NCBI GenBank assembly: GCA_964388865.1
Contig: CAYMDB010000002.1
Location: forward strand, 1-38,931
Origin: an uncultured Flavobacteriaceae bacterium
GTDB lineage: Bacteria; Bacteroidota; Bacteroidia; Flavobacteriales; Flavobacteriaceae
Length of the DNA: 38,931 bases
Direction of reading: 5' to 3'
The position numbers were made by a program, and so were the translations under genes. Within the stretch, counting starts at the first letter, position 1. The number at the start of each line of letters is the position of its first letter. Under the pieces are notes generated by a model, which saw only the letters and a list, made by a program, of their open reading frames with translations, searched no databases and had not been told where the DNA came from. Shown here piece by piece: positions 4,477 to 38,931 of this stretch.

Positions 4477-4548
4477 TGTCACCTTGAGCGCAATCGAAAT
4501 GCATTAATCCTAAGAGGACTAATCTTTTCGACTACCTTCGAAATGACA
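4477..4548. repeat. Degenerate inverted pair of GTCA-footed palindromic repeats
   Basis: TGTCACCTTGAGCGCAATCGAAATG ... TTTTCGACTACCTTCGAAATGACA; related to the copy at 24422-24449. Confidence 0.65.
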
Positions 4549-4573
4549 GTTTTGACTATAGTTTAATTAAAAA

Positions 4574-4594
4574 AGATTCCTGCTTTCGCAGGAA
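4574..4594. repeat. REP-like hairpin (CCTGC-TTTC-GCAGG subfamily)
   Basis: AGATTCCTGCTTTCGCAGGAA, 6 nt before the trpS ATG. Confidence 0.8.
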
Positions 4595-4600
4595 GTTAAC

Positions 4601-5569
4601 ATGGCAAGAATATTAACAGGCATACAAAGTACAGGCACTCCGCATTTAGGTAACCTTTTAGGGGCTATTTTACCCGCAATAGAAATGGCAAATGACGCTA
4701 AAAACGATTCATTTCTATTTATTGCTAACCTCCACACCTTAACACAAATTAAAGATGCTGAAGCTTTAAGACAGCACACCTATTCCGTAGCTGCCACCTG
4801 GTTGGCTTTTGGTTTAGACATTGACAAAACTGTGTTTTACAGACAAAGTGATGTGCCACAAGTAACAGAACTATCCTGGTATTTAAGCTGTTTTTTTCCG
4901 TACCAGCGCTTAACCTTAGCCCATGGTTTTAAGGATAAAGCCGACCGATTAGAAGATGTAAATTCGGGTTTATTTAATTATCCGATGCTTATGGCGGCGG
5001 ATATTTTATTGTATGATGCTGAAATCATTCCGGTAGGAAAAGACCAATTACAACATATTGAAATGACCCGAGATGTCGCCTCGCGATTTCATGCGAAAAT
5101 GGGTGAAACTTTTGTAATGCCTGAAGGAAAAGTTCAAGAACACAACATGTTAATTCCCGGAACAGATGGCGAAAAAATGAGTAAGAGTAGAGGTAATTTT
5201 ATCAATATCTTTTTACCTGAAAAGCAACTGCGCAAAAAAATAATGTCTATTGAAACCGATAGCACTCCACTCGAAGAACCTAAGGATTGGCGCAGCTGTA
5301 ACTGTTTTGCTATTTATAAATTAATGGCATCAAAAGCTCAAATTGCGGAAATGAAAGCCAATTATGAAGGAGGTAACTATGGTTACGGTCATGCAAAACA
5401 AGCTTTATATGAATTAATTTTAGACCGTTTTGCTGAACCTAGAGAACGTTATAATTATTATATGAGCAACCTCAACGAACTTGATGCGGCTTTGGCTAAA
5501 GGGGCTTCAAAAGCGAGATTGGTTGCAGATGATGTTTTAAAACGTGTTAGAGAAAAGGTGGGGTATTAA
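4601..5569 (+). CDS. trpS: Tryptophan--tRNA ligase
   Basis: HLGN and KMSKS class I motifs; YPMLMAADILLY, PVGKDQ. Confidence 0.99.
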   Translation: MARILTGIQSTGTPHLGNLLGAILPAIEMANDAKNDSFLFIANLHTLTQIKDAEALRQHTYSVAATWLAFGLDIDKTVFYRQSDVPQVTELSWYLSCFFPYQRLTLAHGFKDKADRLEDVNSGLFNYPMLMAADILLYDAEIIPVGKDQLQHIEMTRDVASRFHAKMGETFVMPEGKVQEHNMLIPGTDGEKMSKSRGNFINIFLPEKQLRKKIMSIETDSTPLEEPKDWRSCNCFAIYKLMASKAQIAEMKANYEGGNYGYGHAKQALYELILDRFAEPRERYNYYMSNLNELDAALAKGASKARLVADDVLKRVREKVGY

Positions 5570-5600
5570 ACATAACTCTAAAGACTCAAACTCCATAAAA

Positions 5601-5633
5601 AGACCTAACAGGTTTCAAAAACCTGTTAGGTCT
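5601..5633. repeat. 33-bp palindromic REP (ACCTGnCAGGT-type family)
   Basis: AGACCTAACAGGTTTCAAAAACCTGTTAGGTCT. Confidence 0.85.
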
Positions 5634-5664
5634 CTTCGCGACGGAAATGTGAAATCTTTAAACC

Positions 5665-5826
5665 CTAAATCACCTCAAACAATTTCCCCGGCAAGGACCT
5701 TATCACTCCTTTCAATTCCATATTCAGTAAAATACCTGCTAATTTATAGGTGGGCATTTCACACTTTAAGGCAATAACATCGAGCAATTCTTTATTGTTC
5801 TCTTTTAGAAAGTTATAAATGATTTT
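5665..5826 (-). pseudogene. dprA: Orphan 3' fragment of dprA (last 53 codons plus stop)
   Basis: Reads KIIYNFLKENNKELLDVIALKCEMPTYKLAGILLNMELKGVIRSLPGKLFEVI*. About 89% nt identity (18/162 mismatches, hand count) to 10089-10250. Confidence 0.95.
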
Positions 5827-5827
5827 A

Positions 5828-5887
5828 AAAGCTAAGGCAGTCGCAGATGCGGTTTTAAAACGTGTAATGGGAAAAGTGGGGTATTAA
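5828..5887 (+). pseudogene. trpS: Orphan 3' fragment of trpS (last 19 codons plus stop)
   Basis: KAKAVADAVLKRVMGKVGY* versus intact KARLVADDVLKRVREKVGY* (5510-5569). Confidence 0.9.
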
Positions 5888-5888
5888 A

Positions 5889-8550
5889 TTAAAATCGAAA
5901 CCCAACGGAAAATAAGATGAAACGCTCTTGTAAATTATGCTCAAAACTTGATGTTGATAAATCTGAAGAACGGATGTTCCTAAAGGTTTTTTGATTGAGC
6001 AAATTGTTTGCCCTAAGCCTATATTCTACTTTTTTGTTTTTTGACGTCAAACTTATTGAAGCATCCAAAAATAAATCCCCCGAAACACTAGATCTTAAAT
6101 CTGGTTTAAAATATTGACTATCTAAAGTAAATTGAAAATTATTCTTTACATACTTAACTGTAAAATCATTCCGAAATGAAGTGAATTCATTTGAACCTCC
6201 CAGATCTGTTTCAAAAAAATTATTGTTTACGAATAGCTTATTTTCAAAATTAATTGCGCTTTTAAAACCTGTTCTTGCTTTAAACTCAACCAGTAGGTTT
6301 CTGCTTGTATTGTTTCTTAATTCTGAATCATTTATTAAGTTTTGATACTTACTAATGCCATAGTTTGAATTTAAATTGAACGTAGTTCTTAAAAAATGTA
6401 AATATTTTTCTAGCCTAAATCCTAATTGATAATTCTCGTTATCCGTAGCTTCAACAATAGAAGTACTGAAGTTAATATTTTCATCAATATTCAATCGAGC
6501 CAAATAGCCAAATTTGCTATAATTATAACTTGAATAGATATTAAACTGAAATAAATTATAAAAATCATTGATGCGGTAACCTAATTTGTATGAATGATTA
6601 TTAAAAAGATTGAATGAAAAATCATTATTTAGTAATGATCTGTAATCAGTTAAAACAACGCCTGAAAACGTAGATCTAGCCTCTGGTATCTGGTTTGATA
6701 GGTTGTACGTTGCATACAAGTTAGATTTTTTATTGATATAATAATTGATTGTCAATTCTGGATAAACCATAAAAAATGAATCTTCATAATTCTCTTCTAT
6801 ATTAAAATCGTTAAGTTTGATTTGAAAAAATTCACTTTTTAAATTTGTTATAAAGCCCCATTTTTTTAGTCTGTAGTTGTAGTCTAAATTTAAATAAGGT
6901 TTTGAAATTTGATAGTATAAATTATTGATTGCAGACTGATTTACAAATGAAACTCCTTGTAGCTCGGAATCCACAAAACTTTCATCAAAAATATAGCCCA
7001 TACTGAGTGCAAGTTCGTTAGCCTTAATTTTTGAAAGCAAAGATGTATTAAAATCAATAGTATTTCTTTTAAAATCTATATGTTGTTCTGGGTTTTGAAC
7101 ACCTATAGTTACGTCTACATTTTGAGGTAGGTTATTTGTGGAAATATTGAGTGAAGATTGTAGAACTGTTGCTTTTTTAAATCGGTTTGTATACTCAATT
7201 TTATTTGTAAAAAACAGGTCTCTACTAAACGTCTCTTTGGAGAACAAGTCATTATTGTTAAATCCTGTTGAAGTTCTCTCAATTTTTTTATATTCTAATT
7301 TTCCGTCGGAGGTTAGTAATTTGGTGTCCTTTATTTTATAGATTAAGTTATAGGCAGAAGAATGCACTGACGGCCTTAACTTAATGTTCTCAGAGGTGTT
7401 AATATTTATAGTTTCATTATCAAAACCGTAAATGATAGTTGTTTCTTCCTTTCTTACTAATCTGTCTTTAAACGCATTATAGTTTACTCTCAACGACAAA
7501 TTATCTTGAATTTTAAAAAGAGAATTAACAGAACCAAAAAAATTATCATTTACTCGTGTTCTGTTATCTGGTAAAATGGAACTAAATCCGTTTTCATTGA
7601 CAAGATTAGACGTCCGTTGAGTCAATTCTGATAGCTTTGAAATATCTATATTGTTTGACACAAAGTTGAAGGGACTATAATTTTCTCCAATATTATTATA
7701 GCCAATAGAAGAAAACCCTTTGGTTTTCTTTGATACTAAAATAGAATTTAGTTTTGCATACTGTTTTGAGTCTAAACCTAACCCCAATTCTGCGTTACCA
7801 GACAAATCTGCTTTCCCTTTTTTTAATTTTAAATTTAAAGCTACATCTTGTGAGGATTTAACACCTTTCAATAATGGGTTATCGTCATAATCTTCAAAAG
7901 CCTCTATACTTTCTATAATATCAGAGCTGATATTTTTTGTCCCAATAGAATAGTTTGAATCAAAAATATTATCATTATCTAACAATAATCTTGTAACCGT
8001 TTTGCCTTTAAATCTTACCATGCCATTTTCCTCAACCGTAATTCCTGGCAATTTTTTTTAAAATATCCTCAACTACGCGTTCTGTACCATCTTTGAATTT
8101 TTCTATATTATACACAGTAGTGTCTTTTTTTACACTAATAGGAGGTTTTTTACCTTCTATATAGACTTCATCCAATTCATCAACACGTACATTTAAACTG
8201 AAATTTAGAATATAAGTCTCCCCTTTAGAAGGATTAATATTTAAAGCTATTATTTCTTTTTTATAGCTCAATATAGAGGCCTCAATAATTAATGCCTCAA
8301 ACTCTTTCGGTAGTCTTTTTTTATAAAACCCTTCTTCGTTCGTAAACGTATAATCTAATAGAGCCCCATCTTTAGTTTTAATAAGAATATTTACATTACG
8401 TAATGAAACATTTGTTGTAGCGTCTTTTACAAAACCCTGAATATCAGACTGAGAATAAACAATGTTAGTCAAAAAAAATAGAACCATAAAATTTATGGCT
8501 CTAATAAATTGGATAAAATAAAAAATGTTAATCCTCAATATACGTTTCAA
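5889..8550 (-). pseudogene. GLPGLI-associated outer-membrane beta-barrel (CarboxypepD_reg-like N-domain, TonB-receptor-like plug and barrel), split by a +1 frameshift in an A8 run
   Basis: ORFs 8032..8550 and 5889..8051 join as ..VEDILKKLPGITV.. if one A is removed at 8052-8059, giving ~886 aa. C-terminus FSVGFRF. Confidence 0.85.
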
Positions 8551-10066: not shown

Positions 10067-10086
10067 AGATTCCTGCTTTCGCAGGA
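10067..10086. repeat. REP-like hairpin between convergent XRE and dprA
   Basis: AGATTCCTGCTTTCGCAGGA, identical to the copy at 4574. Confidence 0.8.
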
Positions 10087-10088
10087 GT

Positions 10089-11192
10089 TTAGATCACCTC
10101 AAACAATTTCCCCGGCAAGGGCCTCACCACCCCTTTCAATTCCATATTAAGTAATATACCTGCAATTTTATAGGTCGGCATTTCACACTTTAGGGCAATA
10201 ACATCTAACAATTCCTTATTATTCTCTTTTAAAAAGTTATAGATGATTTTCTCGTCGGGTTCTAACTCAACAAACAATTGTTTTTGAACTGCGGGTTTTT
10301 TATCCGACTCTAATTGCCAGTTGAGCATGTAAGGCACATCCAATGGATCGGACAACAAATGTGCTTTCTGAAACTTAATCAAATTATTACAACCCACACT
10401 TTGGCTATCTGTAGTTCTTCCGGGTACAGCAAATACTTCACGATTATAAGAATTAGCAATATCTGCCGTTACTAAACTTCCGCCTTTTTCAGCAGATTCT
10501 ATAACGATAGTGGCTTCACTAAGCCCGGCAATAATTCGGTTTCGTTTTAAAAAATTGTTTCGGTCAAAACTATCTGTACTCCAAAAATCCGTAAAAAATC
10601 CGCCATGGTTTTCAATATCGGCCATGTACTTTTTATGCGTTTTGGGATAAATCTGGTTTAGGCCATGCGCCAAGCATCCTATGGTTTGCAGGTTGTGCTT
10701 TACAGCCGCTTTTTGTGCTGTGATATCCGTGCCGTAAGCAAAGCCTGATACAATTACTGGATTGTAAACTTTTAAGGTTTCCACTAATTTTTCACAAAAG
10801 GCAATACCGCTGGTTGTAATTTTTCGGGTTCCTACAATACTGATTATGTGTTGTTGTTTTAAATTAATGTTACCCGCTTGAAATAATACAATAGGACCAT
10901 CGATACAATGCTTTAGCCTTTCCGGATAGCTGTCATCGGTAAAGTAATGTACTACAATTTGGTTGTCTTTGATAAATTGTAATTCAGACTCAGCTTCTTC
11001 AAGGTGTGTTTTATCATAAAGCCCTTCAATAATAATACTACCAATACCATCGATTTTTAAAAGTTTAGATTTCCGCTCTTTTAAAACCGCTTCCGCAGAA
11101 CCACAATGCTGTATTAACTTTTTGGCTGTAGTCGATCCAATTTTAGGCACGTGTTGCAAGGCAAGTGCATAAATTAATTGTTGCTCTGTCAT
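10089..11192 (-). CDS. dprA: DNA-processing protein DprA
   Basis: SIVGTR, IVSGFAYGTD, FLKRNRIIAGLS, ESAEKGGSLVTA, VFAVPG. Confidence 0.97.
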   Translation of the reverse strand: MTEQQLIYALALQHVPKIGSTTAKKLIQHCGSAEAVLKERKSKLLKIDGIGSIIIEGLYDKTHLEEAESELQFIKDNQIVVHYFTDDSYPERLKHCIDGPIVLFQAGNINLKQQHIISIVGTRKITTSGIAFCEKLVETLKVYNPVIVSGFAYGTDITAQKAAVKHNLQTIGCLAHGLNQIYPKTHKKYMADIENHGGFFTDFWSTDSFDRNNFLKRNRIIAGLSEATIVIESAEKGGSLVTADIANSYNREVFAVPGRTTDSQSVGCNNLIKFQKAHLLSDPLDVPYMLNWQLESDKKPAVQKQLFVELEPDEKIIYNFLKENNKELLDVIALKCEMPTYKIAGILLNMELKGVVRPLPGKLFEVI

Positions 11193-12468: not shown

Positions 12469-12978
12469 ATGCAATCTAGAACTGCTTTTCAGTCAAAAAC
12501 TGTTGCTACTGATGTTGTTTTACCAAGCGAAACTAATCCAATAAACAACTTATTTGGTGGCGAACTATTAGCGCGTATGGATAGAGCTGCTAGTATTGCT
12601 GCCAGGCGCCATTCGCGGCGTATTGTGGTTACGGCTTCTGTAAATCACGTGGCTTTTAATAGATCTATACCTTTAGGAAGTGTGGTTACCATTGAGGCCA
12701 AAGTTTCTAGAGCGTTTACCTCTTCCATGGAAATATATATTGATGTTTGGACAGAAGATAGAGAGTCTGGCGAAAGTATTAAAGCCAATGAAGCTATTTA
12801 TACTTTTGTTGCTGTAGATGACACTGGAAGACCGATAAAAATTCCTGAACTCATCCCAGAAACGGCCTTGGAAATAGAGCGTTATGATGCTGCTCTTAGA
12901 CGTAAACAGTTGAGTTTGGTACTTGCTGGCAAAATGAAACCTAGTGAGGCTACTGAGCTTAAAGCGCTCTTTGAGTAG
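12469..12978 (+). CDS. Acyl-CoA thioesterase (hotdog fold, YciA-like)
   Basis: NPINNLFGGELLARMD, VVTAS, YTFVAVD. Promoter TATCTTTG at 12443-12450. Confidence 0.93.
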   Translation: MQSRTAFQSKTVATDVVLPSETNPINNLFGGELLARMDRAASIAARRHSRRIVVTASVNHVAFNRSIPLGSVVTIEAKVSRAFTSSMEIYIDVWTEDRESGESIKANEAIYTFVAVDDTGRPIKIPELIPETALEIERYDAALRRKQLSLVLAGKMKPSEATELKALFE

Positions 12979-13413
12979 ATTCTGAAACTCGTTTAGAATG
13001 ACAAAGCATGAAGAAATTTGTTCCAGTTAATTATGGAAAAACCCCAAATGATTGTCATGCTGAATTTAGTTCAGCATCTTGATAATATTTTAATCTAAGT
13101 ATTAATTTCATTAAACATCTAATCAATCAAAGGTTGAGATTCTGAAACTAGTTCAGAATGACAAATTAGTGTGGATTCATAAAAGGTTCAAAATTGTCCT
13201 AAGGCTCAATTGGTGTCATGCTGAATTTAGTTCAGCATCTTTAAAGTATTTTACTCGGTGCTTTATTTTCTTCAAACACTTAATCAATTTGAGGCTGAGA
13301 TTCTGAAACTAGTTTAGAATAACAAAGCGTGAAGCTATTTGTTGAAATTATTAATGGTTATAACCTTCGAGGATTGTCATGCTGCTCCGAGAAAACAGAA
13401 TAGTTCAGCATCT
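12977..13413. repeat. BIME-like array of six alternating 27-bp palindromes, period ~160 bp
   Basis: AGATTCTGAAACTAGTTCAGAATGACA-type at 12977, 13137, 13298; TGTCATGCTGAATTTAGTTCAGCATCT-type at 13053, 13214, 13375. Confidence 0.93.
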
Positions 13414-16836: not shown

Positions 16837-16963
16837 ATGTATTTCCCTTTTAAAAAGGGCGGTTCAATCTAAAGGATGCTTCAATTAACTCTGAAGGATT
16901 TTGATAGGTTTAAAGGTTGTTCCAAATTAAAAAAATATCTAGAAAACTGAAAGGCCTATTCTT

Positions 16964-17043
16964 TGTCAATCTGAACTCGTTTCAGATTCTAAAATCAATA
17001 AAAAATAAATAATTGAGATTCTGAAATAAATTCAGAATGACAG
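16964..17043. repeat. Inverted REP doublet (GTCA..ATCT family)
   Basis: TGTCAATCTGAACTCGTTTCAGATTCT ... AGATTCTGAAATAAATTCAGAATGACA. Confidence 0.88.
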
Positions 17044-17071: not shown

Positions 17072-18091
17072 TTATTCTAAAACGGTATAATCACCAATAC
17101 TTATCTTGGTAAATTCGCCATCATACCTCACATGATTACCAATCATAGCTTCGTCTAAAGTAGCGTTTTTAATATGGGTCTGATTCTGAATTAAGCTATA
17201 TTTAACGCTTGCATTTTCAATGACACAATTGGTGCCAATAGATACATAGGGACCAACCGTTGCGTTTTTCAACACCGTACCTTTTCCGATGAAACAGGGC
17301 TCAATTATTTTTGAATTTTCTAAAACAACTGAAGAATCAATCAATTCCTCTTCCTTGTCGGCCGTTAAAAACCCTAACATTTTTGCATTCGTTTCTAGGG
17401 TTACAGCTTTGTTTCCACAGTCCATCCACTCATCAACCGTACCCGTTTTAAAGATTCTTCCATCAGCCATCATGCGTTTTATACCGTCGTTAATTTGGTA
17501 TTCGCCACCATTCATGATGTTCTCATCTAGGACTTCTTGCAGTTTTTCCTTTAAAACAGCCACATCTTTAAAATAATAAATACCTATTACAGCTTGGTCA
17601 CTAACGAAGGTTTCTGGTTTTTCAACAAGTTCTACAATATTTTGTTCTTCATTTAACTTTACCACACCATAAGCTTCCGGATTTGAAACGTGCTTGGTCC
17701 AAATGACACTATCGGCAGTTGGGTCTAAATCAAATTCTGCTCTAATTAATGTATCGGCATAAGCTATTACAGCCGGACCCGATAAGGACGGTTTTGCGCT
17801 CATTATGGCGTGACCCGTTCCTAAGGGTTGATCTTGTCTGTAGATAGATGCTTTTGCGCCTAAACCTTCCGCGAGTTGGGTTAAACTTTCAACCACATCC
17901 TCGCCAAAAAAAGCAGGATCACCCAAAACAAAAGCAATCTCTTCAATAGGTTGCTTTAAAACTTTTGCGATGTCCTTGACTAGGCGATGCACTATCGGTT
18001 GACCTGCAACTGGGATTAGGGGTTTTGGTACGGTTAAACTGTGTGGTCTAAGGCGAGATCCTCTGCCTGCCATTGGTACTATTATTTTCAT
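17072..18091 (-). CDS. Sugar-phosphate nucleotidyltransferase (glucose-1-P thymidylyltransferase-like, with LbH tail)
   Basis: PMAGRGSRLRP..PKPL, QPLGTGHA, LVEKP. Confidence 0.92.
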   Translation of the reverse strand: MKIIVPMAGRGSRLRPHSLTVPKPLIPVAGQPIVHRLVKDIAKVLKQPIEEIAFVLGDPAFFGEDVVESLTQLAEGLGAKASIYRQDQPLGTGHAIMSAKPSLSGPAVIAYADTLIRAEFDLDPTADSVIWTKHVSNPEAYGVVKLNEEQNIVELVEKPETFVSDQAVIGIYYFKDVAVLKEKLQEVLDENIMNGGEYQINDGIKRMMADGRIFKTGTVDEWMDCGNKAVTLETNAKMLGFLTADKEEELIDSSVVLENSKIIEPCFIGKGTVLKNATVGPYVSIGTNCVIENASVKYSLIQNQTHIKNATLDEAMIGNHVRYDGEFTKISIGDYTVLE

Positions 18092-18095
18092 ATCA

Positions 18096-18157
18096 CATGC
18101 CTGCGAAAGCAGGTATCTTTTTATGGTTAAACTTCATTCCTGCGAACGCAGAAATCT
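18096..18157. repeat. Two tandem REP-like hairpins
   Basis: CATGCCTGCGAAAGCAGGTATCT (18096-18118) and TCATTCCTGCGAACGCAGAAATCT (18134-18157). Confidence 0.85.
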
Positions 18158-18160
18158 CTT

Positions 18161-18393
18161 TTATTGTCTCAATTTATTATCGTTTAGATTCCGATTCATC
18201 CTTAAATCGGACCGATTTGGATTTATAGCTCAAATTAATTCTATTTTCCAAAATCTTTCACACTTTATAAATTGTCGTTCTCGCTTTTCAGCTTAACTCC
18301 AGGTTTCACATTCTTCAATAGAATCGGTTAACTCAATATAAAACACCATTATTCTTATTACTCATTATGTAAAAATACCAATGGTTTATGCAC
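18161..18393 (-). pseudogene. Decayed small GIY-YIG nuclease (UPF0213/YhbQ-like)
   Basis: Hand translation: WYFYIMSNKNNGVLY / frameshift / TDSIEE / internal deletion / CETWS*AEKRERQFIKCERFWKIELI*AINPNRSDL. This fits the pattern YVYIMxN..gvLYIGVT...AxxRExQxKxWxRxWKxxLI..NPxWxDL. Confidence 0.85.
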
Positions 18394-18403
18394 TTTAATT
18401 ATG

Positions 18404-18426
18404 AGATTCCTGCCTACGCAGGAATG
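18404..18426. repeat. REP-like hairpin, inverted relative to the 18134 copy
   Basis: AGATTCCTGCCTACGCAGGAATG. Confidence 0.85.
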
Positions 18427-18428
18427 GG

Positions 18429-18863
18429 TCACTTCACCCCAGTACTCCCAAAACCACCGTCTCCTCTTTCGGTTTCTGAGAGTTCCTCGGACAGTTCCCA
18501 TTCGGCACGCTCGTGTTTTGCTATGACTAGTTGAGCAATTCGCTCGCCATTCTGGATTTCAAAACTTTCGTTTGAAAGGTTGACTAAAATAACCCCGATT
18601 TCACCTCTGTAATCGGCATCAATTGTACCAGGTGCATTTAATACAGTGATTCCTTTTTTCGCTGCTAAACCACTTCGCGGTCTTACTTGGGCTTCAAAAC
18701 CAATAGGTAATTCTATAAATAAGCCAGTCCCAACAATAGTGCGTTCTAAAGGTTTTAAAACTCTAGAATCTGTGAGGTTGGCGCGTAAATCCATACCCGC
18801 TGAAGCAATGGTTTCGTAGTGCGGTAAATCGTGCCTCGATTTGTTGATAATTTTAATTTTCAT
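18429..18863 (-). CDS. dut: dUTP diphosphatase
   Basis: [36 protein letters not shown]. Likely start is MKIKIINKS at 18863. Confidence 0.97.
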
Positions 18864-22683: not shown

Positions 22684-22763
22684 TGTCATTCTCTTCCGAA
22701 GTTTCGGAATACTCAGAATCTTCATTTATATTTTCGAGATCCTGAAACGAGTTCAGGATGACA
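22684..22763. repeat. Inverted REP doublet; first copy carries a nested hairpin insertion
   Basis: TGTCATTCT[CTTCCGAAGTTTCGGAA]TACTCAGAATCT ... AGATCCTGAAACGAGTTCAGGATGACA. Confidence 0.85.
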
Positions 22764-22773
22764 CAAAACGGAC

Positions 22774-24356: not shown

Positions 24357-24449
24357 CATTGCCCGTGAAAACGGGTATCTTTTGGTTAATATTAATTTTA
24401 TAATAACGGTTACACTTTCAGAGATGCTTCGACTGCGCTAAGCATGACA
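24357..24449. repeat. Two REP-like hairpins of different subfamilies
   Basis: CATTGCCCGTGAAAACGGGTATCT (24357-24380) and AGATGCTTCGACTGCGCTAAGCATGACA (24422-24449). Confidence 0.8.
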
Positions 24450-34956: not shown

Positions 34957-34976
34957 TTTTTTTTAAATTCTATTTT

Positions 34977-35009
34977 AGACCCCACAGGTTTTAAAAACCT
35001 GTGAGGTCT
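34977..35009. repeat. 33-bp palindromic REP
   Basis: AGACCCCACAGGTTTTAAAAACCTGTGAGGTCT. Confidence 0.85.
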
Positions 35010-35018
35010 TAACATCCA

Positions 35019-35670: not shown

Positions 35671-35694
35671 AGGTTTTAAACACCTGTCAGGTCT
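35671..35694. repeat. Truncated 33-bp-family REP
   Basis: AGGTTTTAAACACCTGTCAGGTCT. Confidence 0.75.
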
Positions 35695-35720
35695 TCAATT
35701 AAATTGATACGTTCTAGGCT

Positions 35721-37233: not shown

Positions 37234-37244
37234 CTCATCCCTTC

Positions 37245-37277
37245 AGACCTGTCAGGTTTTAAAAACCTGACAGGTCT
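37245..37277. repeat. 33-bp palindromic REP overlapping the GT9 stop
   Basis: AGACCTGTCAGGTTTTAAAAACCTGACAGGTCT. Confidence 0.9.
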
Positions 37278-38283
37278 CCTTTACTTTCGTGATTATTGTT
37301 TCAACAGAAATGCTTCCTGCTGCAGACTCATAGGCTTCAGGATAGGTGTTTCCATACACAGAAGTCGGTATTAGCGGATATTGATTTCGATCTGCTAATA
37401 AGGCAAAATGATCTGGCTGATGAAATGGTGCAAAACCTGCAAACGGATGCGTCACTCCCCATATGGTAATTACTTTTATGCCTAACATAGCGGCCAAGTG
37501 TGCATTGCCCGAATCCATAGATAGCATAGCATCCAAATTTGAGATCAGTGCTAGTTCTTCATCTAAATTAAGTTTCCCCGCTGCTGAAATGACATTGTTG
37601 TATTTGGTTTCAAAATCGTTTAAAATCCCAACTTCACTCTCTCCACCTCCAAACAAAATGATGGCGTGATCTTTACTCAACTCTGCGATGACTGCTTCCA
37701 TCTGATCTAAGGGATACATCTTGCTTTTATGTGCAGCGAAAGGTGCGATTCCGATGGCTTTGATAGCTTTATTTGGAATAAAACGCTTTAGTTTTTCAGA
37801 CAGCTGCGCTGGTTTTAGAAACTTAGGTTTGGATAAATTCACTTCAAATCCCAAAGCTTGAAAAACATCTGCATAGCATTGATGCGTTATTTTTAATTGT
37901 TGAAACCGTTTTCCTGAAATCAAAGCTTTTTTTTCGGCTCTACCTTTATCGAGTTGGACTACCTTTTTGCCAAGAAAAAAGAATTTTAAAATTTTACTTC
38001 GCAATACATTATGCAAGTCGGCCACAGCATCAAACTGTAAAGCTTTTAATTCTTTGGAAAGTTTATAGAGTCCAAAAATGCCTTTGTGTTTTCCTTTTAA
38101 GTCTGCTGAAAACACGTCAACATGTTTTAAATCTTGAAAAAAAGGCTTAAAAAATGCTCTTGTAACTACAGTAATTTTTAGGTTTGGATGCTGTGCAACT
38201 AAAGCTCTAATAACGGGAACCGTCATAGCAACATCTCCCATGGCTGAAAATCTTAAGACTAATATGTGATGGGGTTTTGACAT
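37252..38283 (-). CDS. Glycosyltransferase family 9 (heptosyltransferase-like)
   Basis: LRFSAMGDV, DSGNAHLAA. Likely start MSKPHH at 38283. Confidence 0.93.
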   Translation of the reverse strand: MSKPHHILVLRFSAMGDVAMTVPVIRALVAQHPNLKITVVTRAFFKPFFQDLKHVDVFSADLKGKHKGIFGLYKLSKELKALQFDAVADLHNVLRSKILKFFFLGKKVVQLDKGRAEKKALISGKRFQQLKITHQCYADVFQALGFEVNLSKPKFLKPAQLSEKLKRFIPNKAIKAIGIAPFAAHKSKMYPLDQMEAVIAELSKDHAIILFGGGESEVGILNDFETKYNNVISAAGKLNLDEELALISNLDAMLSMDSGNAHLAAMLGIKVITIWGVTHPFAGFAPFHQPDHFALLADRNQYPLIPTSVYGNTYPEAYESAAGSISVETIITKVKETCQVFKT

Positions 38284-38292
38284 TATTCCATT

Positions 38293-38325
38293 AAACCTGT
38301 CAGGTTTTAAAAACCTGACAGGTTT
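38293..38325. repeat. 33-bp palindromic REP
   Basis: AAACCTGTCAGGTTTTAAAAACCTGACAGGTTT. Confidence 0.9.
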
Positions 38326-38328
38326 CAA

Positions 38329-38931
38329 TTACTTCTGCCCTCGCAAAACAGGATTTAGCTCATCATCGTTGTACATTTTCATCTGCTTATACACTTTCAT
38401 GTACTTATCACCTTTGGAAATATCATGGAGCAAATCATCAATTGCAGTGCTTAAATCTGTGCGCTGCTCTAACAGAACATTTAACTTTTTCTGGCAAGCC
38501 ACTTTGTGGGCATCAGAAGCATCGTCCCTTACCGTTTCAAGATGCATATGATAAATTTTTAAAGCTAAAATTGAAAGTCTATCTATGGCCCAAGCCGGAC
38601 TTTCAGAATTAATTTTGGCAGTTGGCTTTACCTCAACATCTTTGTATTTTTCTAAAAAATAGCTGTCTATAAATTCTACTGTATCTGTTCTATCCTGGTT
38701 AGAGGCATCAATTTTGCGTTTCAACTTTAAAGCAGCAACAGGATCGATGTTTGGGTCTCTAATAATATCTTCGTAAGCCCATTGCACGGTATCAATCCAG
38801 CATTTTCTGTAAAGAAGGTGCGCGATTAAATCATCGTTTTTATCATACTTGTTTGTAAAAGACTGATCTACTGTGTTTAAAACTTTGTAGGTTTTAATAA
38901 CGTCCTGAAATATGGTATTGTCTTTTTGTGA
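38329..38931 (-). CDS. DUF4254 domain protein (5'-truncated by window)
   Basis: Frame open to the window end; WIDTVQWAYEDIIR, NQDRTD.VE.ID, ESPAWAIDRLSILALKIYHM. Confidence 0.9.
   Translation of the reverse strand, partial: SQKDNTIFQDVIKTYKVLNTVDQSFTNKYDKNDDLIAHLLYRKCWIDTVQWAYEDIIRDPNIDPVAALKLKRKIDASNQDRTDTVEFIDSYFLEKYKDVEVKPTAKINSESPAWAIDRLSILALKIYHMHLETVRDDASDAHKVACQKKLNVLLEQRTDLSTAIDDLLHDISKGDKYMKVYKQMKMYNDDELNPVLRGQK

What the first reader, a model, noticed from the sequence alone, without database searches (positions are those of the whole stretch)
18096..18426. Decayed GIY-YIG nuclease bracketed by inverted REP-like hairpins: candidate REP-mobilising system using GIY-YIG instead of a RAYT
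Seen: the gap between dut and the nucleotidyltransferase hides a pseudogene absent from the ORF track. It reads WYFYIMSNKNNGVLY..TDSIEE//..AEKRERQFIKCERFWKIELI*AINPNRSDL, with frameshifts, two stops and an internal deletion. It is flanked within ~10 bp by inverted hairpins (TCATTCCTGCGAACGCAGAAATCT and AGATTCCTGCCTACGCAGGAATG), with a third copy alongside. The same hairpin occurs alone at 4574, 10067 and 24357. Established: the layout of an enzyme gene flanked by inverted REPs, with solo REPs dispersed, is that of REP/RAYT 'REPtrons', where the enzyme is an HUH tyrosine transposase. Inference: a ~95 aa GIY-YIG nuclease is the cognate enzyme of these GTCA..ATCT repeats, forming a small selfish element that inserted inside a conserved operon. 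I know of no demonstrated mechanism for this.
Basis: partly seen in the sequence, partly recalled or inferred. Interest (0 to 1): 0.82.

Follow-up and report, generated by a model that had tools for sequence, protein, structure and literature searches.

The report
Dead Ssn hairpin-nuclease cassette in operon
A broken copy of a small DNA-cutting gene of the published Ssn family sits between two housekeeping genes, bracketed by DNA hairpins that lack the usual GTC tail; relatives show that this cassette has moved between gene junctions and likely between species, and the enzyme likely starts those moves by cutting at the hairpin foot.

Summary
Bases 18389-18161 (minus strand) are a dead GIY-YIG gene (start lost, one frameshift, 84-nt deletion, two stops) between inverted hairpins. 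It belongs to the Ssn family (cd10448), published in 2025 as hairpin-specific ssDNA nucleases. That paper already draws the REP/RAYT analogy but shows no mobility. The scan has met Ssn cassettes before on other DNA (211 notes match my search words).

What differs here: this Flavobacteriaceae branch uses hairpins without the GTC tail that SsnA needs for cutting (0 of 62 cassettes), so the published motif misses them. Hairpin 5' feet sit at gene boundaries (39 of 74 copies, versus 3 of 74 on the 3' side).

Mobility evidence comes from relatives: 12 gene junctions; 6 of 77 cassettes carry a duplication of 22-151 nt of the downstream gene, joined at the left hairpin foot; some host pairs share a near-identical cassette between diverged flanks. 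That the nuclease drives this is inferred, not shown. Verdict: a new variant of a known system, with testable evidence on an open mobility question.

The parts
18161..18389 (-). Pseudogene of an Ssn-family GIY-YIG nuclease (start lost, frameshift ~18342, 84-nt deletion at 18323/18322, stops 18295-18293 and 18232-18230, natural stop 18163-18161)
18404..18425 (-). Left hairpin (8-bp stem, 4-nt loop, 3' CT, no GTC tail); 5' foot 3 nt after the dut stop, 14 nt before the former start
   Evidence: (DNA fold -7.7 kcal/mol)
18136..18157 (+). Inner right hairpin (one stem mismatch), 3 nt past the ssn stop; present in part of the genus and in some paaA|paaB cassettes
18097..18118 (+). Outer right hairpin, the conserved right end; 5' foot 5 nt before the nucleotidyltransferase ATG
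18429..18863 (-). Host gene dut (upstream neighbour)
17072..18091 (-). Host sugar-phosphate nucleotidyltransferase gene (downstream neighbour)
4574..4595 (-). Solo hairpin just before the trpS start; present in 26 of 30 genus loci scored (own included), without an ssn gene
10067..10088 (-). Solo hairpin whose foot abuts the dprA stop
24359..24380 (+). Solo hairpin just before the atpA start; only in this genome among 30 genus loci

Best explanation
This is a dead copy of a ~330-400-bp Ssn nuclease cassette (hairpin, 14-nt spacer, gene, inverted hairpin) that has moved among gene junctions in Flavobacteriaceae, and the intact enzyme likely starts each move by cutting single-stranded DNA at the 5' foot of its tail-less hairpin, with host recombination likely finishing the job. 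Shown: family, layout, cognate hairpin, many sites, duplications joined at the left foot. Inferred: the cassette has no room for a promoter and is read through from the host operon; the freed end, carrying the cassette plus the start of the downstream gene, is joined by microhomology on one side and by homology on the other; selection then trims the junction back to the stop or start codon; copies decay to solo hairpins and sites can be re-invaded. The genome's intact paralogue (contig C28) would be the only local source of enzyme.
For: Membership: the branch groups with Neisseria SsnA (locus L205, both ssnA primers of the paper match exactly, NTS-flanked) at 100/100 support, 40-48% identity over 86-90 aa, apart from the control clade. 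Y6/Y17/E64 of SsnA correspond to Y7/Y18/E66, invariant in 11 of 11 rows. Cognate hairpin: 78 of 79 versus 1 of 30; spacer 13-15 nt in 56 of 62. Mobility: 12 gene-pair junctions (9 downstream genes), 25 site changes on a 91-row tree (minimum 11, shuffled mean 48.7). Junction signature: 6 of 77 cassettes carry a copy of 22-151 nt of the downstream gene ending 0-3 nt from the left foot; in 4 or 5 of the 6 the copy also includes the right hairpin, in 3 the ssn 3' end as well. Cross-species moves: Jejuia and L128 differ at 5 of 88 synonymous codons in ssn against 37% and 45% in dut and ntp; 29 of 496 pairs are significantly lower, none higher, control 0 and 1. dN/dS about 0.15. Co-directional with both neighbours in 75 of 82. 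Foot asymmetry 39 of 74 versus 3 of 74. Ssn cleavage 5' of hairpins is shown for four other members (PMC11893778).
Against: No activity has been measured for this branch. SsnA needs the three bases 5' of the stem to cut, and these hairpins lack them, so they might be bound but not cut. No duplication scored above background at the dut junction itself. Much of the dut-site history is vertical (ssn versus ntp pN, Spearman 0.74). The 29 low-divergence pairs are not independent (about three events), and ssn has lower synonymous divergence overall (median 0.39 versus 0.50-0.53). The AU test was uninformative because controls were rejected too. Five of the six duplications are at one target gene. 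The 79 loci are the best 80 of 557 hits to one query. The trpS hairpin is kept across the genus without ssn, which points to a host role. No co-conversion tract was seen in 25-codon bins of the flanks, which a long homologous anchor would predict.
Confidence: 0.55

Rival explanations
1. The nuclease is a domesticated host factor that restricts incoming hairpin-bearing ssDNA, as SsnA does in Neisseria. The cassette moves only as a passenger of ordinary recombination, and the hairpins persist as mRNA elements at gene boundaries.
For: SsnA lowers transformation by NTS-bearing DNA (PMC11893778). dN/dS 0.15 and broad host tracking at the dut site. The trpS hairpin is kept in 26 of 30 genus loci with stem changes. 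The paaA|paaB left hairpin keeps its fold inside coding sequence after full stem turnover.
Against: Frequent decay: 5 of 8 cassette-bearing genus relatives are broken, and 16 of 24 lack it at this site. Duplication junctions fall at the hairpin foot. Twelve junction types.
Confidence: 0.25
2. The hairpins and cassette are moved in trans by another enzyme (a RAYT, or the sister Ssn clade that goes with GTC-tailed copies of the same stem). Tail-less copies are eroded survivors that escape cutting.
For: Five Y1_Tnp hits in the genome. GTC-tailed copies of the same stem are common in other family members and bracket L086-type Ssn genes. One Y1_Tnp locus (L212) has family-A hairpins some 320 nt and more downstream.
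Against: The two RAYT loci that are bracketed by repeats are bracketed by a different family. This genome has 0 tailed and 38 tail-less matches and only this branch plus other GIY-YIG types, yet a lineage-specific solo copy at atpA; the assembly is 87% complete.
Confidence: 0.1
3. The nuclease is a true RAYT-like transposase that both cuts and rejoins hairpin ends.
For: REPtron-like layout with both 5' feet pointing outward; precise left junctions.
Against: Only cleavage is reported for Ssn. GIY-YIG enzymes hydrolyse DNA without a covalent tyrosine intermediate (recalled, no call). The captured length varies from 22 to 151 nt and the duplicate includes the element's own right end, unlike a fixed target duplication.
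Confidence: 0.1

Closest known systems
Ssn nucleases (SsnA, CDD cd10448) with NTS/SRM hairpins; Chenal et al. 2025, PMC11893778
   Same: Single-domain ~100-aa GIY-YIG protein, 40-48% identical to Neisseria SsnA and in one clade with it; gene bracketed by inverted hairpins with an 8-bp stem, 4-nt loop and the conserved C after the stem; solo copies dispersed.
   Different: No 5' GTC tail; stem CCTGC rather than CCCGC; the published SRM pattern finds 0 at the locus and 5 in the genome, and the paper's table lists these hosts as homologue-positive with background SRM counts of 0-6. Very compact cassette fitted between stop and start codons. Evidence of movement, which the paper only hypothesises.
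CGTC-1 REPs / Neisseria dRS3 (Di Nocera et al. 2013, PMC3733652)
   Same: Same stem-loop core; described as lacking a dedicated transposase.
   Different: The CGTC tag that defines the family is absent here.
REP/RAYT REPtrons (IS200/IS605-type HUH transposases)
   Same: Enzyme gene between inverted hairpins, solo and paired copies elsewhere.
   Different: The enzyme is GIY-YIG, not HUH; repeats are not GTAG-tagged; this genome's RAYT genes have their own repeat family.
Free-standing homing endonuclease genes (recalled, no call)
   Same: GIY-YIG gene in intergenic sites with intact, decayed, remnant and empty alleles, and apparent cross-species replacement.
   Different: The predicted target is the element's own hairpin on ssDNA, not the empty dsDNA allele; no co-conversion tract seen.

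Membership tests
Ssn (cd10448) | BLAST similarity to SsnA, E<1e-10 over at least 75% of its length | tested here: met
   14 of 14 branch members, 40-48% over 86-90 of 94 aa against the N. gonorrhoeae orthologue, E 1e-19 to 1e-23 at a set database size of 1e6; E 7e-16 in the plasmid collection. The N. meningitidis protein itself was not fetched.
Ssn (cd10448) | Falls in the Ssn clade of GIY-YIG proteins | tested here: met
   100/100 branch with Neisseria and Azospirillum members, excluding the C212-type clade (46 rows)
Ssn (cd10448) | Direct score against the cd10448 profile | not testable with these tools
   CDD not available; the paper's table marks host genomes such as W. costae, J. pallidilutea and H. 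marina as cd10448-positive at genome level
Ssn (cd10448) | Single small domain with catalytic Y6, Y17, E64 | tested here: met
   Y7, Y18, E66 invariant in intact members. The window copy has lost its start and 28 codons and is dead.
Ssn (cd10448) | Gene flanked by inverted cognate hairpins | tested here: met
   78 of 79 on at least one side, 61 of 79 on both; control 1 of 30
Ssn (cd10448) | Hairpin matches the published SRM pattern, including the 5' GTC tail | tested here: not met
   0 of 62 left hairpins have GTC; pattern finds 0 at the locus. This makes the repeat a variant; it does not remove the protein from the family.
Ssn (cd10448) | Site-specific cleavage of ssDNA 5' of the hairpin | not testable with these tools
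   needs purified protein
REP/RAYT REPtron | HUH tyrosine transposase (PF01797) | tested here: not met
   intact members hit PF01541; the Y1_Tnp hits lie on other contigs
CGTC-tagged REPs | 5' CGTC/GTC tag | tested here: not met
   2 of 74 genome copies
Homing endonuclease gene | Cuts the empty allele; co-converts flanks | tested here: inconclusive
   no tract at 25-codon resolution; cleavage untestable here

The most novel reading that the evidence does not exclude
This branch is a self-mobilising element of a type not yet shown experimentally: a 100-aa ssDNA nuclease with no strand-transfer chemistry cuts at its own tail-less hairpin, carries along the start of the next gene, and so hops between junctions of an operon and re-enters the same junction in other species, seeding the solo REPs. 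It would supply a mobiliser for CGTC-type repeats.
Probability: 0.45. Interest if true: 0.72.

Novelty: new variant of a known kind. Interest (0 to 1): 0.45.

Why it matters
How CGTC-type REPs spread is an open question: the 2013 survey found no dedicated transposase, and the 2025 Ssn paper only hypothesised mobility. This branch gives junction sequences, named culturable hosts with intact genes, and a sharp prediction (cutting at a hairpin without GTC, 0-3 nt from the stem), so the question can be tested directly. A tail-independent Ssn would also be a new ssDNA-cutting specificity, and the published motif overlooks these repeats. The window copy itself is only a fossil.

Tried and rejected
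Rfam: no match in the window at gathering thresholds. PDB sequence search: no hit at E 0.1. NCBIfam: no specific family for the intact paralogue. A metagenome scan with the ssnA primer found nothing; the Neisseria orthologue came from the plasmid collection instead. AU tests of ssn against the host tree were rejected, but so were all four host-gene controls, so the test is uninformative. I first thought the middle hairpin was unique to this genome; one search refuted that. I tested whether the second repeat family in the window (GTCA-tailed, near 12977-13357 and 16959-17042) belongs to either GIY-YIG clade: 0 of 79 and 0 of 30. No duplication above background at the dut junction. The null has a maximum of 28.5, likely because site labels that share the E2 gene were paired (not checked); its 95th percentile is 6.5. 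Genome co-occurrence of tail-less repeats with the branch (6 of 10 versus 10 of 140, tallied by hand; Fisher p 9e-5) is confounded by one-mismatch overlap with tailed copies and by kinship, so I give it little weight. No ssn remnant at the trpS or atpA solo sites in 60 genus loci. No structure or complex prediction was run. Literature searches; only PMC11893778 links this family to these repeats, and none of these searches returned a paper showing Ssn mobility or tail-less repeats (library is open-access only).

Full report
Observation. The window is contig C2 of a 3.2-Mb, 87% complete assembly whose nearest named homologues are Flavobacteriaceae. Alignment with relatives places the lesions: ATG to ATA at 18389, a 2-nt deletion near 18342, an 84-nt deletion at 18323/18322, and two stops. 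The deletion removes R28, E31, H32 and Y37, which are invariant in intact members. Read through with X, it scores 54.9 bits on a profile of 91 intact relatives against 6.6 for the best of 200 shuffles. Pfam on the pieces is below cut-off. Contigs of three runs carry the same letters where they cover the locus. Hairpins lie at 18404-18425, 18136-18157 and 18097-18118, and the solo copies are confirmed. The genome has 74 copies and one intact paralogue on C28, itself bracketed by the same hairpins.

What it is. A literature search returned Chenal et al. 2025 (PMC11893778). I read parts 1-6 of 11 of its text, Supplementary Data 5 and 8, and part 1 plus searches of Supplementary Data 4. I did not see the figures, and supplementary files 13 and 14 were not searched. 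The paper defines Ssn (cd10448) as single-domain GIY-YIG nucleases that cut ssDNA a few bases 5' of a hairpin (NTS/SRM). It shows that binding depends most on the C after the stem and cutting on the three bases before it, and it notes that NTS-ssnA-NTS looks like an IS and resembles REP/IS200-IS605 systems. It does not show mobility. The N. gonorrhoeae orthologue (L205) matches both ssnA primers exactly and is NTS-flanked. Our branch is 40-48% identical to it and groups with it at 100/100 support, apart from a second GIY-YIG clade used as control. So the protein is an Ssn.

Cognate repeat. Of 79 GTDB loci (the best 80 of 557 hits), 78 have the hairpin within 200 nt and 61 on both sides; the control clade has it in 1 of 30 and shows its own different hairpins. 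The spacer to the ATG is 13-15 nt in 56 of 62 scored cassettes (62 of 82 passed the pairing filter), and none has the GTC tail. The published SRM pattern finds none at the locus and 5 in the genome. The paper's table gives these hosts homologues but only 0-6 SRMs (30 rows seen). GTC-tailed copies of the same stem do occur in other family members: 60 of 151 genomes have a match at one mismatch, this genome none. At paaA|paaB the left hairpin lies inside the last codons of paaA with a fully changed stem but the same fold.

The site. Among 24 genus relatives the dut|ntp junction has an intact gene in 3, a broken or remnant cassette in 5, and none in 16. Among the 29 best-matching family loci it is intact in 3, broken in 3, reduced to the right hairpin in 5, and without ssn in 18 (scored by eye). 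The outer hairpin is the conserved end. The middle one is shared with six genus relatives and with some paaA|paaB cassettes. Intact dut-site genes have dN/dS about 0.15 and broadly track the host (Spearman 0.74 for non-synonymous distance, 32 loci). The insertion is old, and this copy is a decayed descendant.

Evidence of movement. The branch occupies 12 gene-pair junctions (9 downstream genes) in two neighbourhoods, dut-ntp-TPR and the phenylacetate (paa) cluster. The 91-row tree, which leaves out broken and duplicate rows, needs 25 site changes against a minimum of 11; support is rough. Three of 79 loci hold cassettes at adjacent junctions. Following a lead from scan note e1-2046479, I looked for duplications in 77 cassettes. 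Six carry a copy of 22-151 nt of the downstream gene's start that ends 0-3 nt from the left hairpin foot. In L080, L134, L143 and L170 the copy also includes the right hairpin, in the last three part of the ssn 3' end as well, and L151 has a hairpin remnant. This is a one-sided capture joined at the foot, not a fixed target duplication; five of the six are at one gene. At the dut junction, 29 of 496 host pairs have significantly fewer synonymous differences in ssn than in its flanks, none more (control 0 and 1). L123/L128 and L117/L161 are near-identical from hairpin to hairpin, with divergence resuming in the flanks. These pairs amount to about three events, ssn is somewhat less diverged overall, and the AU test was uninformative.

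Solo copies. The 5' foot abuts a stop or start codon in 39 of 74 copies and the 3' side in 3 of 74. A looser rule gave 42 of 74 against 108 of 2000 random intergenic positions. Eleven of 20 start-type copies carry the AGTTTAA-like motif seen in 41 of 82 cassette right ends, against a 20% background. The atpA copy is found in 1 of 30 genus loci, so new solos still arose in this lineage. The trpS copy is found in 26 of 30, without ssn, which suggests host use. The two RAYT genes with bracketing repeats use a different family.

Mechanism. Shown: family, cognate tail-less hairpin, compact co-directional layout (75 of 82), many sites, foot-anchored duplications. From the paper: other Ssn enzymes cut ssDNA 5' of the hairpin. 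Inferred: read-through expression, cutting at the tail-less foot, and joining by host recombination with capture of downstream DNA, followed by trimming and decay (0.55). Rivals: domesticated restriction factor with passive movement (0.25), movement by another enzyme (0.10), true transposase chemistry (0.10). The weakest link is that SsnA needs the tail that this branch lacks.

Comparison and verdict. It is a member of Ssn by protein and layout, fails the published SRM tail, works like a REPtron in layout only, and is not a RAYT system. For PMC3733652 I saw the search listing and passages only; it states that CGTC REPs lack a dedicated transposase. Other papers were seen only as listings. The scan's own notes hold 211 findings with the same words and four look-alikes by sequence; these are leads, not support. 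New variant of a known kind; interest 0.45.

Noticed in passing
window 5506-5888 and 10090-10250: A diverged copy of the dprA 3' end (5666-5826, 89% identical) and of the trpS 3' end (5824-5900) lie at the left edge of a 4.5-kb insert between trpS and dprA, with a family-A hairpin at the dprA stop and another repeat family after trpS.
   Followed up: partly
window 12977-13357, 16959-17042, 22725-22768: A second, GTCA-tailed hairpin family (55 pattern hits in the genome) that flanks neither GIY-YIG clade tested nor the RAYT loci; partner enzyme unknown.
   Followed up: partly
window 5593-5642, 34969-35018, 35671-35695, 37237-37286, 38285-38334; L211, L212: A third repeat family that brackets two RAYT (Y1_Tnp) genes elsewhere in this genome: an ordinary REPtron.
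   Followed up: partly
L175-L204 (G000:C212:4456-4752 and relatives): A second GIY-YIG clade outside the Ssn branch is itself bracketed by its own GTCA-tailed hairpin families, as earlier scan notes reported.
   Followed up: partly
window 4540-4601 and L245-L273: The hairpin 5 nt before the trpS start is kept across the genus with compensating stem changes, downstream of a TAnnTTTG-like motif in many relatives (promoter reading recalled, not tested); possible 5'-UTR element.
   Followed up: partly
L130, L163, L008, L042, L050, L053, L111 (ntp|TPR junction): Solo left-type hairpin plus about 12 nt, followed by an approximate 10-nt repeat of the ntp gene end, compared with empty alleles such as L014, L022 and L049.
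   Followed up: partly
L104, L110, L113, L115, L150; L112, L124, L144 and others: The left hairpin supplies the last codons and stop of the host gene paaJ/pcaF, or lies within the last codons of paaA.
   Followed up: partly
G000 contigs C28, C36, C58, C210, C401: Clusters and tandem units of family-A hairpins without ssn; seven copies lie on C28, the contig that holds the paa genes and the intact ssn.
   Followed up: no
L206 (Azospirillum lipoferum 4B): A canonical GTC-tailed Ssn cassette also sits inside an operon, between sufB and sufC.
   Followed up: no
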